Shown: one piece after another, positions 4,727-29,434 of the stretch | How positions within the stretch are numbered: the stretch's first letter is position 1 | Layout of the letters: each line of letters opens with the position of its first letter | DNA from: a virus | Strand: one strand, 5' to 3' | DNA length: 64,000 nucleotides | IMG/VR virus record: IMGVR_UViG_3300027754_000067 | Location: 22,543-86,542 of that record | The notes under the pieces: model-generated | What the model saw: the letters and a program-made list of their open reading frames with translations, nothing else | What the model was told of the DNA's origin: nothing | Database searches by the model: none | Program-made: the position numbers and the translations under genes

Positions 4727-4800
4727 GCCCATGTACGCCAACTGGTCGAGCGGAGATTTTCAAAAATTCTTGCATGTAGATTCGAATTCTATCATGGGCA
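4727..4800 (+). tRNA. atypical tRNA-Leu(CAA) with short variable arm, possibly degenerate
   Basis: Acceptor stem GCCCATG/CATGGGC; D-loop with TGG; anticodon arm AGATT-TTCAAAA-ATTCT (one mismatch); T arm GTAGA-TTCGAAT-TCTAT. Confidence 0.7.
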
Positions 4801-17167: not shown

Positions 17168-17422
17168 ATGAACAGCAGAGATCATGAGGAACTAACAGAG
17201 ATCCACGAGAAGATGCTTGAACTCGTGAATGATGTTGAAAGAATCATGCGACGAGAAGGAGGGATTGAATATGAGCGAGCCAAGGGATATTGGCTTGCAA
17301 ACATTAAAATGGGATTGACAAACAATCATGGGTATCTTAGTATGCCCATGTTCAACATGGAAACTGCAATCAGTGCGCTGGAACCATGCGAGGATGAAGA
17401 TCAGGAAGAAGATTCCGATTAA
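17168..17422 (+). CDS. hypothetical protein
   Basis: Leaderless promoter; ends EEDSD. Confidence 0.7.
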   Translation: MNSRDHEELTEIHEKMLELVNDVERIMRREGGIEYERAKGYWLANIKMGLTNNHGYLSMPMFNMETAISALEPCEDEDQEEDSD

Positions 17423-18179: not shown

Positions 18180-18306
18180 GCAATAACTGTACCAGTGGGG
18201 AGCGCATACTTAAAACGCTCAAATTTTGCGGCAAACACCTTAAAATTTAATACCTTGACTCTCCCTTCAATCTCTGATAGAGTGATTGAAGAAAGCGAGA
18301 GACTGA

Positions 18307-18546
18307 ATGACAACTTACATCCTCAAGAATGGTGAGATTGTTTTGTTTCTTGTCATGGCAACGGAACCTATTGGTGGATGCCGTTTACCTTATCTTAAAA
18401 CATTCTCGGAGGATGAAGCATTGAATGCCGCAATGACGCTTGAATCTGATTGGGGCGCTGGTGCAAGGGTAAAGATTTGTGAGCACTACATCTCCCAAAG
18501 AATGTGGGAACACAAGTACAAAACCCCTTGGCCTATCGCTCAATAG
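18307..18546 (+). CDS. hypothetical protein
   Basis: Promoter plus ORF. Confidence 0.55.
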   Translation: MTTYILKNGEIVLFLVMATEPIGGCRLPYLKTFSEDEALNAAMTLESDWGAGARVKICEHYISQRMWEHKYKTPWPIAQ

Positions 18547-18554
18547 CAAACACC

Positions 18555-18600
18555 ATACCAAGGCAAGGGTTCCAATCCAACGGAACCCTTGCTCTGGTAT
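18555..18600. repeat. long hairpin, paralogous to 16921-16970
   Basis: ATACC..GCAAGGGTTCC/GGAACCCTTGC..GGTAT. Confidence 0.7.
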
Positions 18601-18807
18601 CCCTCTCTAATATGCCTCTCTCTGGCATCAGGAACGCCCAACAGAGCCGTTAAATCCTTTCAACGGACAATCTACCGTTAGGGAAATGAGAGCCCAAGAA
18701 ACGCTGCAAATCTGTCAATAGGAATAGCAGGGCAAACACCTTAAAATTAATCCTTTGACAATCTAACAGGAATCCAGTAAGATCAAAACAGATCAAAGAG
18801 AGCCTAG

Positions 18808-18834
18808 ATGAACAAAAGCCGAGACGGCCCCTAA
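18808..18834 (+). CDS. micro-ORF MNKSRDGP
   Basis: Own promoter; first of three tandem units. Confidence 0.55.
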   Translation: MNKSRDGP

Positions 18835-18932
18835 TAAAATCCTTTGCAAACCTCTGGAGTGCAGACCTCAATTAAATGCCTTGACTCTTCAATCAGAATC
18901 CAGTAAGATCAGAACATAACAAAGGAACCTAG

Positions 18933-18959
18933 ATGCAAAAGATCCGAGACGGTCCCTAA
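18933..18959 (+). CDS. micro-ORF MQKIRDGP
   Basis: Own promoter; AAAGGA RBS. Confidence 0.6.
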   Translation: MQKIRDGP

Positions 18960-19070
18960 TAAAACTCTGTGCAAACTACACGGGTGCAAACCTCAATCAA
19001 TGCCTTGACTTCTCATTCAGAATCCAGTAAGATCAGATCACAAAGCAGATAACTAAAAGGAACCAACTAG

Positions 19071-19100
19071 ATGCAAAAGATCCGAGACGGTCCTATCTAA
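19071..19100 (+). CDS. micro-ORF MQKIRDGPI
   Basis: Own promoter; AAAGGA RBS. Confidence 0.6.
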   Translation: MQKIRDGPI

Positions 19101-19166
19101 ACTTCCTACAATCAATGGTTTGACATACCGGGGAGCGCATGGTATAAACGCTCATTACTAAGAAAA

Positions 19167-19255
19167 GCCCGAATGGTGGAATCGGCAGACACCGGAGACT
19201 TAAAATCTCTTGCTGCGAAAGTAGCGTACCAGTTCAAGTCTGGTTTCGGGCACCA
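19167..19255 (+). tRNA. trnL: tRNA-Leu(TAA)
   Basis: Full cloverleaf; anticodon arm GGAGA-CTTAAAA-TCTCT; long variable arm; encoded CCA; TTGACA-17-TATAAA promoter at 19120-19148. Confidence 0.95.
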
Positions 19256-19327
19256 TAAAAGAGATTTTAAGTCTCTTGACTTAAAACAAACAATCCTGTA
19301 AGCTAAGAACATCAAGGGAGCAAAACA

Positions 19328-19498
19328 ATGCAAACCAAGAAGCAAGCCATCAAGGATTTTCGGGAATTTCTCTTGCCTTCCATCCCAAACAATGATACCA
19401 TCGCCAAGCAAGAAGCATGGAATAATTATACTGATGCTCTTTGCAAGAGCCGTTTTATTACCCTTCGCCAATATGAAAACTGGACTAACCCCTTCTGA
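19328..19498 (+). CDS. small conserved phage protein (EAWNNYTDALCK..QYENW)
   Basis: GGGAG RBS plus ORF. Confidence 0.7.
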   Translation: MQTKKQAIKDFREFLLPSIPNNDTIAKQEAWNNYTDALCKSRFITLRQYENWTNPF

Positions 19499-19564
19499 TT
19501 TAATCCCTTGACTATCCAGTGAGAGTCTGATAAAGTCAGGAAAGATCAGGGAGCAAAAGAAACC

Positions 19565-19765
19565 ATGAAGATCAACCATCGCACTGGATCTGTCAAGCGT
19601 TTGGACCATCACGAGAACTATCGCTTTAACAAGTCTGGCTTGAAGGAGGAAGGTAACACGGTTCGCCGCTGCATGGATCGTGCCGCAATCAAGAACAGCC
19701 TTGAAGGCAACGATGGCACGCTCTTTGCTCGCAGCAAGGAAGGAAACCCTTGGAACTTCGATTGA
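19565..19765 (+). CDS. hypothetical protein
   Basis: Promoter, RBS and ORF. Confidence 0.6.
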   Translation: MKINHRTGSVKRLDHHENYRFNKSGLKEEGNTVRRCMDRAAIKNSLEGNDGTLFARSKEGNPWNFD

Positions 19766-28552: not shown

Positions 28553-29434
28553 ATGAGTAATTTGAAATTATATAATATTTTATACGAGAACGGTGATCTA
28601 GTTGATGAAATGGCGATTCAGCAGTTTAAAACTGTTGGAGATTGGTCAAAAAGATCATCCTTTTCTCACCCAGTTGACAGAGCATTATTAACATCGCCAA
28701 AAGCGGTAGAGAAAATAAAACGTCAATGGGAAAATACGCCATATGATTTTGATTTATATTTTGTTAATGATAAAAGAGTTAATAATCCAGCATTTAGAGA
28801 AGTAGGTTACAAACATTTAGATTTTGTAAGAAATATACTGCAAATCACACCAGAAGAGATACCAGACCCGTCAGATGACAGAATAACAATTATATATACT
28901 GGTAATTTTGGTGATGAAAGATATATGGCAAGTGGCTGGATTTTGGCACATCGTTTTGGACATGCGATTTCAAGAAGCGATAATTCAACGGTTGGCGACT
29001 TATGGCGTAAATTTATAAAAAATCTAGCTGATATTTTTAAAGATATTTTATCAAAAGTTTACAATATCGAAGTTGATCTTAACATGCGTGGCAATTATTC
29101 TCAAATAAATAAAAATCAGAAGATATTAAAATTTGCCGCTCAGCAAATTGGGACTATGAAAAGTGCTAGAGAAAATAATTTACGTAATTGGTATGAATTT
29201 GCCTATGAATTATTAGCTCAATACTTAATTTCAGGTAAAATAAAGTTTAATCCATTACCAAAATCAATTATTATTGGATTTGGTCCTTATGGCAGAAAAG
29301 AAATGAGATATACTAAATCTGAAGAATCTCGTCAGGAGATAAACTCCAGTGAATTAGATTACTATGCTTCGACTATTGAATATCAGCTGGAAGATATCCT
29401 TGGAGCATGTTTGAATAAGATATTTGTGATGTGA
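28553..29434 (+). CDS. tagged protein with HxxxH metal motif
   Basis: KLYNILYE; AHRFGHA...EFAYELLAQ. Confidence 0.75.
   Translation: MSNLKLYNILYENGDLVDEMAIQQFKTVGDWSKRSSFSHPVDRALLTSPKAVEKIKRQWENTPYDFDLYFVNDKRVNNPAFREVGYKHLDFVRNILQITPEEIPDPSDDRITIIYTGNFGDERYMASGWILAHRFGHAISRSDNSTVGDLWRKFIKNLADIFKDILSKVYNIEVDLNMRGNYSQINKNQKILKFAAQQIGTMKSARENNLRNWYEFAYELLAQYLISGKIKFNPLPKSIIIGFGPYGRKEMRYTKSEESRQEINSSELDYYASTIEYQLEDILGACLNKIFVM

What the first reader, a model, noticed from the sequence alone, without database searches (positions are those of the whole stretch)
18745..19110. Three tandem promoter units each expressing an 8-9 aa peptide ending RDGP
Seen: three ~125-140 bp units, each TTGAC-17-TAAGAT, a short leader (AAAGGA in two), then MNKSRDGP* (18808-34), MQKIRDGP* (18933-59) and MQKIRDGPI* (19071-100). 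Differences at conserved residues are synonymous (AAA/AAG, GGC/GGT, CCC/CCT), which points to selection on the peptide. Established: the SecM arrest core is IRAGP, related RAPP/RAGP motifs stall ribosomes, and Pro-stop junctions slow termination (TnaC). Inference: a dosage-amplified ribosome-stalling or inhibitory micropeptide, located just before the tRNA-Leu gene. It is much shorter than SecM, so the analogy is tentative; a small RNA is the alternative.
Basis: partly seen in the sequence, partly recalled or inferred. Interest (0 to 1): 0.82.

Follow-up and report, generated by a model that had tools for sequence, protein, structure and literature searches.

The report
Conserved eight-codon phage gene, arrest-like
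Three tiny genes, each with its own promoter, sit in a row in front of a phage tRNA gene; the same eight-residue peptide recurs in unrelated phages, and its core resembles the motifs that jam bacterial ribosomes, so it is probably a very short, undescribed ribosome-acting micro-gene.

Summary
Three tandem units (18745-19115) each carry a TTGAC-N18-TAAGAT promoter, a short leader and an 8-9 codon ORF: MNKSRDGP*, MQKIRDGP*, MQKIRDGPI*.

The ORFs appear to be real genes. In a close relative (L016) and in strain variants, 5 of 5 substitutions in sense codons are synonymous, while leaders and spacers carry many substitutions and indels.

M-x-K-I-R-D-G/T-P mini-ORFs with Shine-Dalgarno sites also occur elsewhere. 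They are found in an unrelated complete 276-kb phage (four copies), in at least four further viral contig lineages, and in two MAGs. All six Arg codons are used, and conservation ends at Pro8.

On one contig an RDGP mini-ORF directly follows a mini-ORF with a canonical RAPP at the same residues 5-8.

Best reading: a very short RAPP/RAGP-like ribosome-arrest or pausing micro-gene. Stalling is untested, and its purpose is unknown. Genomic contexts are too varied for a classical leader of one downstream gene.

The Pro-stop idea is not upheld, and a structured small RNA is not supported. The spacers of U1 and U2 are relics of pentapeptide-repeat genes.

Earlier notes of this scan report similar Arg-x-Pro-Pro or RDGP micro-ORFs in other phages. 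My literature searches found no paper describing this.

The parts
18755..18783 (+). Promoter P1 (TTGACA-17-TAAGAT) of unit U1
   Evidence: The -35 and -10 boxes are identical in L016 unit A, while 5 of 29 positions, all in the spacer, differ.
18784..18807 (+). U1 leader with a weak Shine-Dalgarno site (GAGAG)
   Evidence: It is 83 % identical to L016. It carries 3 substitutions and 3 indels in one RNA-library strain variant.
18808..18834 (+). Mini-ORF 1, MNKSRDGP*, with a second in-frame TAA at 18835-18837
   Evidence: L016 unit A differs by AAC>AAT and CCC>CCG (both synonymous) and TAA>GAA, which adds one Glu. The X17 variant has GGC>GGT and TAA>GAA.
18845..18870 (+). Relic of two pentapeptide-repeat units, from the MKKITxTELK paralogue family
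   Evidence: Local alignments to 5 of 8 paralogues gave z 7.3-10.4 against shuffles. The relic is absent from L016.
18881..18909 (+). Promoter P2 of unit U2
   Evidence: It is 28 of 29 identical to the promoter of the gene at 17168.
18910..18932 (+). U2 leader with Shine-Dalgarno site AAAGGA
18933..18959 (+). Mini-ORF 2, MQKIRDGP*, with a second TAA at 18960-18962
   Evidence: The only strain variant listed is 18953 T>C (GGT>GGC, synonymous); 9 further rows of that call were not shown.
18969..18997 (+). Relic of two pentapeptide-repeat units
   Evidence: Local alignments gave z 5.2-12.9. This is the most variable stretch among strains: 8 substitutions and 3 indel sites between 18964 and 18998.
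19005..19033 (+). Promoter P3 of unit U3
   Evidence: It is 90 % identical to L016 unit B.
19034..19070 (+). U3 leader with Shine-Dalgarno site AAAAGGA
   Evidence: It is 81 % identical to L016. The Shine-Dalgarno site is kept, while the 10 nt before the ATG are rewritten with a 3-nt indel.
19071..19100 (+). Mini-ORF 3, MQKIRDGPI*
   Evidence: L016 unit B differs only by CAA>CAG, which is synonymous.
19120..19153 (+). TTGACA-17-TATAAA promoter-like site overlapping one copy of the recurrent GGGGAGCGCAT pseudoknot-like motif. It lies between the array and the tRNA.
   Evidence: 6 motif copies against 0.56 expected, all on the + strand. It is conserved in L016. Its function is not resolved.
19167..19255 (+). 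tRNA-Leu(taa), probably co-transcribed with the array
   Evidence: No terminator-like site was found on the + strand between 18745 and 19166. The same order is seen in L016.

Best explanation
Each unit is a real, translated micro-gene. A sigma-70-type early promoter makes a short, unstructured mRNA. Its Shine-Dalgarno site loads a ribosome that synthesises Met-x-Lys-Ile-Arg-Asp-Gly and then meets a Pro codon.

The conserved part is exactly these eight codons. I read residues 4-8 (Ile-Arg-Asp-Gly-Pro) as a minimal RAPP/RAGP-type arrest core. On this reading the ribosome pauses or arrests with Gly7-tRNA in the P site and Pro8-tRNA in the A site, as in SecM (Ile-Arg-Ala-Gly-Pro) and ApdP (Ile-Arg-Ala-Pro-Pro).

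The consequence is inferred, not shown. A ribosome is held near the 5' end of a small transcript. Here that transcript is the leader of the tRNA-Leu precursor; elsewhere it is a stand-alone RNA or the end of an operon. This could shield the RNA from decay or Rho. With many copies it could tie up ribosomes or peptidyl-tRNA in trans.

Shown: the anatomy, selection on the peptide, and spread among unrelated phages. Inferred: translation arrest and its use.

The units arose inside decayed pentapeptide-repeat gene cassettes and multiply by recombination between the near-identical promoters.
For: 1. Coding-type selection.
- The close relative L016 has 3 differences in 51 sense nucleotides, all synonymous, against 21 % divergence in leaders and spacers (Fisher p 0.02).
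- Strain variants show 2 variable sites in 75 ORF nucleotides, both synonymous, against 31 in 249 other nucleotides (p 0.015).
- Five of 5 synonymous has P about 7e-4.

2. What is kept and what is lost. L016 has lost unit U2, the 79-aa gene and both pentapeptide relics. It keeps two mini-ORFs with their -35 and -10 boxes and the Shine-Dalgarno site.

3. An unrelated complete 276-kb phage, G001, with no homologue of this phage's DNA polymerase, carries four such ORFs. They are MNKIRDGP*, MNRIRDTPIKHLLL*, MNNLRDGPESNNK* and MNKIRDTP*. Changes among them include CGA/AGA, ATT/TTA and AAG/AGG. The pattern gave 4 forward, 0 reverse and 0 control hits.

4. Further members with Shine-Dalgarno sites in intergenic places:
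- L034=L036: MTKIRDGPL*
- L035: MIKIRDGPSA*
- L038: MTKIRDGP*
- L028: MNKIRDGPR*
- G004: two loci with MRKIRDGP..., 4 synonymous differences between them, and 0 hits in 400 other genomes of the phylum
. Of the 8 distinct sequences, 6 stop within 4 codons after Pro8. However, one of these 6 (L040, antisense to a 382-aa ORF) was classed as a chance hit and one (L039, no clear Shine-Dalgarno site) as ambiguous; the 4 counted as members are G001, L034=L036, L035 and L038. Taken at face value, 6 of 8 has P about 0.002.

5. Arrest-type features.
- In L028 the RDGP mini-ORF directly follows MHNARAPPRYRSCTN*, which has a canonical RAPP at the same residues 5-8.
- Arg is invariant.
- Asp at the second position is partially permissive in ApdA and ApdP. 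Gly at the third position gives the SecM-type RAGP (PMC12992588, section 7).
- Ile precedes Arg, as in SecM and ApdP.
- Conservation ends at the would-be A-site Pro. Tails of 0 to 37 residues follow.

6. The array RNA is not structured (z +1.38), as expected for an mRNA open to ribosomes.
Against: - No experiment shows translation or stalling.
- Known RAPP-type arrests need a tunnel segment of at least 6-12 residues before the core. Here only four residues precede Arg.
- In the ApdP mutagenesis, only Gly could partly replace the third-position Pro. On that basis the RDTP copies of G001 would not be expected to arrest.
- RDGP combines two substitutions that are each only partially permissive, and the combination has not been tested in print as far as I saw.
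- Contexts differ widely: own promoter, after a tail gene, inside a recombination operon, at operon ends. That fits a trans-acting product as well as, or better than, a cis switch.
- Members outside G000 and L016 were found with peptide-shaped patterns, so their shared residues are partly forced by the search.
- Two rows's variant tables were cut (9 rows not shown).
Confidence: 0.45

Rival explanations
1. The released octapeptide, probably still formylated and with a variable short tail, is a trans-acting product that binds a host or phage target. The resemblance to arrest motifs is coincidental.
For: The gene sits in unrelated contexts, as a free-standing gene would:
- behind its own early promoter (G000, G001, L034)
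- 15 nt after a 999-aa tail-protein gene (L035)
- between a Sak4-like gene and the next gene (L019)
- at operon ends (G004)
. Selection acts on the amino-acid sequence.
Against: - The C-terminus is free to vary (0 to 37 extra residues), which is unusual for a binding peptide of 8 residues.
- The adjacent RAPP mini-ORF in L028 shares only the Arg5/Pro8 register.
- No partner gene travels with it.
- The 42-residue form in L019 has no homologue other than itself.
Confidence: 0.25
2. The mini-ORFs are a leader or 5' device for the tRNA-Leu precursor. Three extra strong promoters boost tRNA-Leu transcription, and the translated mini-ORFs only keep Rho or RNases off the untranslated leader. No peptide-specific action is involved.
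For: - No terminator-like site lies on the + strand between P1 and the tRNA.
- The order array, motif, tRNA-Leu is conserved in L016, and the motif+tRNA block is 96.5 % identical.
- The other tRNA-Leu (4727) has no promoter of its own and follows the same GGGGAGCGCAT motif.
Against: - This reading does not explain why the peptide sequence is conserved.
- It does not explain why the same peptide occurs where no tRNA is near. In 6 further loci of 52 kb, 0 tRNAs were found. In G001 the nearest tRNA is about 6.3 kb away on the other strand.
- The mini-ORFs contain no Leu codon, so a codon-matched attenuator is excluded here.
Confidence: 0.1
3. The units are lambda-bar-like toxic minigenes. Their short ORFs release peptidyl-tRNA, overload peptidyl-tRNA hydrolase, and starve the host of particular tRNAs during takeover.
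For: - The ORFs have 8-9 codons, with Shine-Dalgarno sites, strong promoters and several copies.
- Minigenes of 3-8 codons and hungry codons near the start act this way (PMC2490762, abstract in the listing).
- An arrest with a 7-residue chain could itself end in drop-off, so this rival overlaps with the best explanation.
Against: - Minigene toxicity does not need a conserved peptide.
- The tRNA that would be trapped is not conserved (Gly in most copies, Thr in two G001 copies).
- Tails of up to 37 residues are tolerated.
Confidence: 0.1
4. The units are evolutionary debris: decayed promoter-plus-gene-start cassettes of the pentapeptide-repeat family. Duplication kept them and the ORFs are incidental.
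For: - The spacers after mini-ORFs 1 and 2 are fragments of pentapeptide repeats (z up to 12.9).
- P2 is 28 of 29 identical to another gene's promoter.
- The 8-mer CGAGACGG also occurs 14 nt after the ATG of one paralogue.
- Copy number differs between relatives.
Against: - The relics are lost in L016 while the mini-ORFs are kept with only synonymous change.
- The same peptide is encoded with different codons in unrelated phages that lack these relics.
Confidence: 0.06
5. The units are small structured regulatory RNA genes, and the ORFs are not translated.
For: Contigs of one metatranscriptome library (X17) cover 18754-19093. This is weak: DNA can be present in such libraries, and contigs show neither ends nor strand.
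Against: - Folding energy is no better than shuffles (z +1.38).
- No Rfam match was found.
- Variation is at third codon positions and between synonymous Arg codons, not compensatory.
Confidence: 0.04

Closest known systems
RAPP/RAGP-type ribosome arrest peptides (SecM; ApdA, ApdP, ApcA; Streptomyces lividans RAPP/RGPP upstream ORFs; CruR)
   Same: The four-residue core is Arg-small-(Pro/Gly)-Pro, with Arg invariant and Pro as the incoming residue. Ile directly precedes Arg, as in SecM and ApdP. Asp at position 2 and Gly at position 3 are each tolerated in part (PMC12992588, section 7; PMC10951233, passages). One relative pairs an RDGP mini-ORF with a RAPP mini-ORF in the same register.
   Different: The known peptides are tens to hundreds of residues long. 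Their motif lies near the C-terminus, after a signal peptide or membrane segment. They sit upstream of a regulated gene and are released by pulling force. Here the motif occupies residues 5-8 of an 8-codon gene. There is no export signal and no consistent downstream gene. The element is carried by phages and is often multi-copy with its own promoters. Arrest has not been shown.
PepNL, a short E. coli sORF arrest peptide (PMC11890864, abstract read)
   Same: A very short upstream ORF whose nascent chain acts on the ribosome without an added inducer.
   Different: PepNL blocks termination at a UGA stop by folding back in the tunnel. Here the stop codon is not conserved (TAA, TGA, TAG, or 1-37 more codons), so a termination block is unlikely.
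Phage lambda bar minigenes and engineered minigenes (PMC2490762 and PMC8012679, seen in the search listing only)
   Same: Phage-borne ORFs of a few codons with a Shine-Dalgarno site, whose effect comes from translation itself.
   Different: Bar-type action depends on ORF length and the last codon, not on a conserved peptide. Here six of eight residues are conserved across unrelated phages.
Leader-peptide transcription attenuators (trpL type), including the codon-matched mini-ORFs before phage tRNA arrays noted earlier in this scan (e1-3415469, unchecked)
   Same: A mini-ORF ahead of a non-coding or regulated downstream element. L028 and L035 place the mini-ORF just before an intrinsic terminator.
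   Different: No regulatory codons match the downstream tRNA-Leu. There is no terminator or antiterminator pair in this window. Most family members have no gene directly downstream.

Membership tests
RAPP/RAGP-type arrest peptides | Arg two residues before the P-site residue, irreplaceable | tested here: met
   Arg5 is present in all 3 window ORFs and in all 14 counted relatives' ORFs. The search patterns required Arg for most of them. The three G001 copies and the L016 copies seen beside a pattern hit are unforced.
RAPP/RAGP-type arrest peptides | Second residue Ala or Gly (Ser, Asp, Pro partly permissive) | tested here: inconclusive
   It is Asp throughout the family, and Ala only in the RAPP partner ORF of L028. 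Asp gave intermediate arrest in ApdA and ApdP (PMC12992588, section 7).
RAPP/RAGP-type arrest peptides | Third (P-site) residue Pro, or Gly as in SecM | tested here: inconclusive
   It is Gly in all window copies and most relatives. It is Thr in 2 of 4 G001 copies. In ApdP only Gly could partly replace Pro.
RAPP/RAGP-type arrest peptides | Pro codon in the A site | tested here: met
   Pro8 is present in every copy, encoded by CCC, CCT and CCG.
RAPP/RAGP-type arrest peptides | An N-terminal adjacent segment in the exit tunnel that supports the arrest (residues 125-130 of ApdP, 108-119 of ApdA) | tested here: not met
   Only Met-x-Lys-Ile precede Arg. Lys-Ile may stand in for the Lys128-Ile130 contacts of ApdP, but that is inference.
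RAPP/RAGP-type arrest peptides | Motif near the C-terminus of a secreted or membrane protein, upstream of a regulated gene | tested here: not met
   There is no signal or membrane segment in an 8-9 residue product. Downstream lie another unit or a tRNA. Contexts elsewhere are heterogeneous.
RAPP/RAGP-type arrest peptides | Demonstrated elongation arrest (toeprint, stable peptidyl-tRNA) | not testable with these tools
   This needs in vitro translation.
Lambda-bar-type toxic minigenes | Very short ORF with a Shine-Dalgarno site, highly transcribed | tested here: met
Lambda-bar-type toxic minigenes | Effect through peptidyl-tRNA drop-off and tRNA starvation, independent of peptide sequence | not testable with these tools
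   The conserved peptide is not predicted by this model.
Leader-peptide attenuators | Regulatory codons that report on the downstream product | tested here: not met
   No Leu codon occurs in the three window ORFs ahead of tRNA-Leu.
Leader-peptide attenuators | Terminator with alternative antiterminator overlapping the ORF end | tested here: not met
   No terminator-like site lies on the + strand in 18745-19166 and there is no excess structure. L028 and L035 do have a terminator after the ORF. Alternative pairings were not analysed.
Structured small RNA | Conserved secondary structure | tested here: not met
   z +1.38 for 18790-19166. No Rfam hit.

The most novel reading that the evidence does not exclude
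Phages of several unrelated lineages carry a self-contained eight-codon gene. Its seven-residue nascent chain (Met-x-Lys-Ile-Arg-Asp-Gly) jams the peptidyl-transferase centre when Pro-tRNA arrives. That would make it the shortest inducer-free arrest peptide known. It would be used not to regulate a downstream gene but as a portable 'ribosome clamp'. In that role it would shield small phage RNAs (here the tRNA-Leu precursor), or, when amplified behind strong early promoters, trap host ribosomes and peptidyl-tRNA during takeover.
Probability: 0.3. Interest if true: 0.9.

Novelty: new variant of a known kind. Interest (0 to 1): 0.77.

Why it matters
If the reading holds, the RAPP/RAGP arrest core works with almost no tunnel segment. 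That bears on how little nascent chain is needed to disable the peptidyl-transferase centre.

It would also show that phages have taken up this host regulatory trick as a mobile, multi-copy micro-gene.

Genes of 8 codons fall below the length thresholds commonly used by gene callers and small-protein surveys, so a whole class of phage functions may be invisible in annotation.

Even if the peptide acts after release, an 8-residue product conserved across unrelated phages would be among the smallest functional genes known.

Tried and rejected
**Searches for relatives that found nothing useful**
- Viral-contig scans with nucleotide-level patterns: searches gave 0 hits. One search gave 2 loci, both chance matches to the promoter pattern with no mini-ORF.
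- The DNA polymerase as anchor in viral contigs gave 0.
- The upstream 79-aa protein has two homologues.
- blastn of the array and of a G001 module against GenBank phages gave no match. For the 2-kb stretch, only tRNA-Leu matched.
- The 42-aa ORF of L019 has no homologue but itself.

**Pattern hits not counted as members**
- Nine of the 10 loci (L007-L015). From the ATG their ORFs run 12-94 codons, and I saw no Shine-Dalgarno site. L011 read by eye lies out of frame in a repeat-protein gene.
- L017, a 92-aa ORF.
- L024 and L025, internal to a long ORF and encoding Ser, not Arg.
- L029, L037 and L040, each antisense to an ORF of 361-503 aa.
- L039 is left as ambiguous because it has no clear Shine-Dalgarno site.

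**Ideas dropped**
- The mini-ORF as a frameshifted start of a pentapeptide-repeat gene. This rested on one shared 8-mer, and out-group conservation overrides it.
- A codon-matched leader for tRNA-Leu, because there is no Leu codon.
- A Pro-stop termination block, because the tails are variable.
- A CRISPR-like or toxI-like repeat array, because the spacing and content do not fit.
- An arbitrium-type signal peptide, because there is no export signal.

**Other negative or weak results**
- Rfam gave nothing beyond tRNA.
- RNA library X18 gave no contig over the array although it covers the downstream genes. RNA library X17 gave none over 19099-19333. Absence of cover proves nothing.
- The higher contig depth over the array in X17 (7.4-29.9, against 4.3 and 6.75 on the flanking genes) is, by the tool's own warning, not a measure of expression.

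**Tools and files not used**
- Structure prediction, complex prediction and the protein atlas were not used, because the peptides are below their size limits.
- I did not ask for supplementary files. The source data of PMC12992588 (lists of RAPP-like small ORFs) may bear on whether RDGP forms were seen.
Full report
**Where the window lies.** The window is bases 22543-86542 of an 86.5-kb IMG/VR virus record that CheckV rates 24 % complete. The same DNA, or near-identical DNA, occurs in freshwater and lake metagenomes of 15 studies. The first 24 kb of the window are 43-48 % G+C and the rest 33-37 %.

The record holds 70 forward and 4 reverse matches to TTGAC-N18-TAnnnT. Most lie 6 nt before an ATG, so almost every small early gene has its own promoter. 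The large genes further on include a DNA polymerase, an amidoligase and an HNH endonuclease.

**The observation.**
- There are three units with spacings of 124-138 nt.
- Each has TTGAC(A/T)-17-TAAGAT and a leader of 23-37 nt.
- The leaders of units 2 and 3 hold AAAGGA.
- The ORFs are MNKSRDGP*, MQKIRDGP* and MQKIRDGPI*.
- tRNA-Leu(taa) follows 66 nt after the last stop.

Units 2 and 3 share a 27-nt block over the ATG and the first seven and a half codons that is 100 % identical, while their flanks differ. No other copy exists in the record.

**Origin of the units.** The spacers behind mini-ORFs 1 and 2 (18845-18870 and 18969-18997) are each two units of a pentapeptide repeat. They align to five of the eight paralogous pentapeptide-repeat genes of this early region that I tested, with z 5.2-12.9 against shuffles.

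Promoter P2 is 28 of 29 identical to the promoter of the gene at 17168. So the array grew inside decayed gene cassettes, by recombination between look-alike promoters. This raised the possibility that the mini-ORFs are debris. The next results argue against that.

**A close relative.** One metagenome contig (L016, Ga0214919_10034224, 5.2 kb) has the same neighbourhood. The order is: the 105-aa gene, a GGGGAGCGCAT motif, two promoter-plus-mini-ORF units, the motif again, tRNA-Leu(taa), and the 56- and 66-aa genes. Compared with the window:
- It lacks the 79-aa gene, unit 2 and both pentapeptide relics.
- Its ORFs read MNKSRDGPE* and MQKIRDGPI*.
- The sense codons differ from the window at 3 of 51 positions (AAC>AAT, CCC>CCG, CAA>CAG), all synonymous.
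- Leaders and post-ORF spacers are 21 % diverged, with indels. The 10 nt before the second ATG are rewritten (Fisher p 0.02).
- The first stop has become GAA, and the next in-frame TAA ends the ORF.

**Strain variants.** I laid contigs of two DNA and two RNA libraries on 18300-19700 at 80 % likeness or more. The listed variable sites in 18754-19119 were:
- 2 in the 75 sense nucleotides (18828 GGC>GGT, 18953 GGT>GGC, both synonymous)
- 1 in a stop codon (18832, again TAA>GAA)
- 31 in the other 249 nucleotides outside the promoter hexamers (p 0.015)

Changes inside promoters fall only in the spacers between the hexamers. Nine table rows were not shown by the tool. If two of them lay in ORFs, p would rise to 0.09.

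Taking the relative and the variants together, 5 of 5 substitutions in sense codons are synonymous. About 23 % would be synonymous by chance (P about 7e-4).

**Unrelated carriers.** A degenerate peptide-plus-Shine-Dalgarno pattern hit a complete 276-kb phage with terminal repeats (G001, IMGVR_UViG_3300021166_000052). That phage has no homologue of this phage's DNA polymerase.

Reading around the hit showed two modules at about 30.7 and 31.5 kb. Each has a TTGACA-17-TAnnnT promoter, AAGGAGG, a first mini-ORF (MNKIRDGP* or MNNLRDGPESNNK*, the latter with a TTG start), and 170-210 nt of G+C-rich sequence that does not align between the modules. Then follow a second Shine-Dalgarno site, a second mini-ORF (MNRIRDTPIKHLLL* or MNKIRDTP*), and an 85-nt terminator region identical in both modules.

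A looser pattern gave 4 forward, 0 reverse and 0 control hits in that genome. Among the four copies the changes are CGA/AGA, ATT/TTA (Ile/Leu), AAG/AGG/AAT and GGC/ACC. These are synonymous or conservative in four of five kinds.

Further scans added these members:

| Locus | Peptide | Context |
|---|---|---|
| L034=L036 | MTKIRDGPL* | own promoter-like site, intergenic |
| L035 | MIKIRDGPSA* | strong Shine-Dalgarno site 15 nt after a 999-aa tail-protein gene; followed by a terminator |
| L038 | MTKIRDGP* | intergenic |
| L019 | 42-aa ORF starting MSKIRDGPE | between a Sak4-like gene and the next gene; CCTAG sits before the ATG as in the window |
| L028 | MNKIRDGPR* | a 5-kb contig binned to a Planctomycetaceae MAG |
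| G004 | two loci starting MRKIRDGP | a Bryobacterales MAG; 4 synonymous differences between the loci |

For G004, the same pattern found nothing in 400 other genomes of that phylum and gave no control hit.

Across the family all six Arg codons occur, although the patterns allowed them all. Of the 8 distinct sequences returned, 6 stop within four codons of Pro8. Of those six, 4 were counted as members, L039 is ambiguous and L040 is probably a chance hit, so the chance estimate (P about 0.002) overstates the support somewhat.

Hits that I do not count are listed under Tried and rejected.

**What the peptide looks like.** The consensus is Met, a variable residue, Lys (Arg/Asn), Ile (Leu/Ser), Arg, Asp, Gly (Thr), Pro. 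After that anything follows: a stop, one to six residues, or 14-37 residues in G+C-richer DNA.

Residues 4-8 read Ile-Arg-Asp-Gly-Pro. The SecM arrest motif ends Gly-Ile-Arg-Ala-Gly-Pro. ApdP has Lys-Cys-Ile before Arg-Ala-Pro-Pro (PMC12992588, section 7, read whole; PMC10951233, passages).

In those systems the ribosome stops with the third residue of the core in the P site and Pro-tRNA in the A site. Arg cannot be replaced. Ala-to-Asp is partially permissive in ApdA and ApdP. Pro-to-Gly at the third position gives the SecM-type core. An arrest of this kind predicts conservation up to and including the A-site Pro codon and none beyond it, which is what the family shows.

The most telling single observation is in L028. 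There the RDGP mini-ORF is preceded, 20 nt upstream, by another mini-ORF with a Shine-Dalgarno site, MHNARAPPRYRSCTN*. It has a textbook Arg-Ala-Pro-Pro at the same residues 5-8, and the pair is followed by an intrinsic terminator.

**What argues against a straightforward arrest peptide.**
- Known members need a supporting segment further up the tunnel. Here only four residues precede Arg.
- The Thr7 copies of G001 would not be expected to arrest, going by the ApdP mutagenesis.
- The double variant RDGP is not mentioned in the passages and sections I read (0 occurrences in PMC12992588).
- The contexts do not fit one cis-regulatory logic. They include own promoter with no downstream ORF, operon ends, inside an operon, before terminators at different distances, and here before a tRNA.

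That heterogeneity suggests the unit works on its own. Either the arrested complex itself is the product (holding a ribosome on a small RNA, or tying up ribosomes and peptidyl-tRNA), or the released peptide acts in trans.

**Local wiring in this window.** No terminator-like site lies on the + strand between P1 and the tRNA, and the array RNA is unstructured (z +1.38). Transcripts from P1-P3 therefore probably run through a copy of the GGGGAGCGCAT motif (19130) into tRNA-Leu.

That motif occurs 6 times in the window against 0.56 expected, always on the + strand. It also precedes the other tRNA-Leu at 4727, which has no promoter of its own. The mini-ORFs hold no Leu codon, so a codon-matched tRNA attenuator, of the kind noted elsewhere in this scan, does not apply. 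A role in protecting or boosting the tRNA precursor is possible, but it cannot be the general function of the family.

**Expression.** Contigs of one metatranscriptome (X17) cover 18754-19093, in at least two sequence variants. Contigs show neither strand nor ends, and such libraries can hold DNA, so this is only a hint.

**Literature.** All searches ran in the held library.
- 'KIRDGP' anywhere: 0 papers.
- 'IRDGP' anywhere: 1 paper, unrelated by title, not read.
- 'arrest peptide' + 'phage' + 'RAPP': 1 paper, unrelated by title.
- A broader search on phage, small ORFs and stalling listed nothing on phage arrest mini-ORFs among the 10 titles shown of 142.
- PepNL shows that very short ORFs can arrest ribosomes without an inducer, but at the stop codon (PMC11890864, abstract).

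Earlier notes of this scan are AI notes that I did not check. They describe an RDGPN-ending mini-gene in a T4-like phage and RAPP or RxPP micro-ORFs in a megaphage and in actinophages. The theme has therefore been met before on other DNA.

**Verdict.** The ORFs are genes under selection on an eight-residue peptide that is shared by unrelated phages. The best mechanistic reading is a minimal RAPP/RAGP-like ribosome-pausing micro-gene (confidence 0.45). A released trans-acting peptide is the main rival (0.25).

Noticed in passing
window 4681, 12226, 12718, 15459, 18197, 19130 (+ strand); L016, two copies: A GGGGAGCGCAT core sits inside a short pseudoknot-like layout (stem-GGG-GAGCG-CAT-stem-A-rich-CGCTC). 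There are 6 hits against 0.56 expected. It lies after early genes and directly before both tRNA-Leu genes. At 19120 it overlaps a TTGACA-17-TATAAA promoter-like site. In L016 and in one strain variant the first stem of the 19125 copy carries an uncompensated change.
   Followed up: partly
whole record; window 54-21866: About 70 same-strand TTGAC-N18-TAnnnT sites were found. Most have the -10 box 6 nt before an ATG (one promoter per small gene, leaderless-like). A minority, including the three units studied, have 20-60 nt leaders with a Shine-Dalgarno site.
   Followed up: partly
record positions 10994-32152 (window up to 9610): A family of at least 8 paralogous pentapeptide-repeat proteins begins MKKITxTELK, each behind its own promoter. 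Fragments of them are scattered as relics.
   Followed up: partly
window 18547-18750: A 204-nt non-coding stretch after the 79-aa gene holds an 18-bp hairpin and further stems, with folding z -4.1. This stretch and the 79-aa gene are absent from L016.
   Followed up: partly
window 19195-19211 and 19259-19275: The 17 nt just after tRNA-Leu are the exact reverse complement of its anticodon stem-loop. They run into the next TTGAC promoter. L016 has a slightly different version.
   Followed up: no
window 28591-28672: ARAGORN calls a third tRNA-Leu inside the 293-aa ORF 28553-29434. It is probably a false positive.
   Followed up: partly
G001 (L018 1079-1296; L023 1320-1502): In the 276-kb phage, two modules share their mini-ORF ends and an identical 85-nt terminator region. 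They enclose unrelated G+C-rich cores of 170-210 nt with no ORF, no tRNA and no Rfam hit. Folding z is 0.38 and -2.8. It looks like a cassette with exchangeable cargo.
   Followed up: partly
L034 5920-5960 (minus strand): About 130 nt after MTKIRDGPL*, a near-copy of its leader precedes a different mini-ORF, MTWRLITAG*.
   Followed up: no
window about 24000: There is a sharp G+C drop from about 46 % to about 35 % between the small-gene early region and the region of large genes.
   Followed up: no
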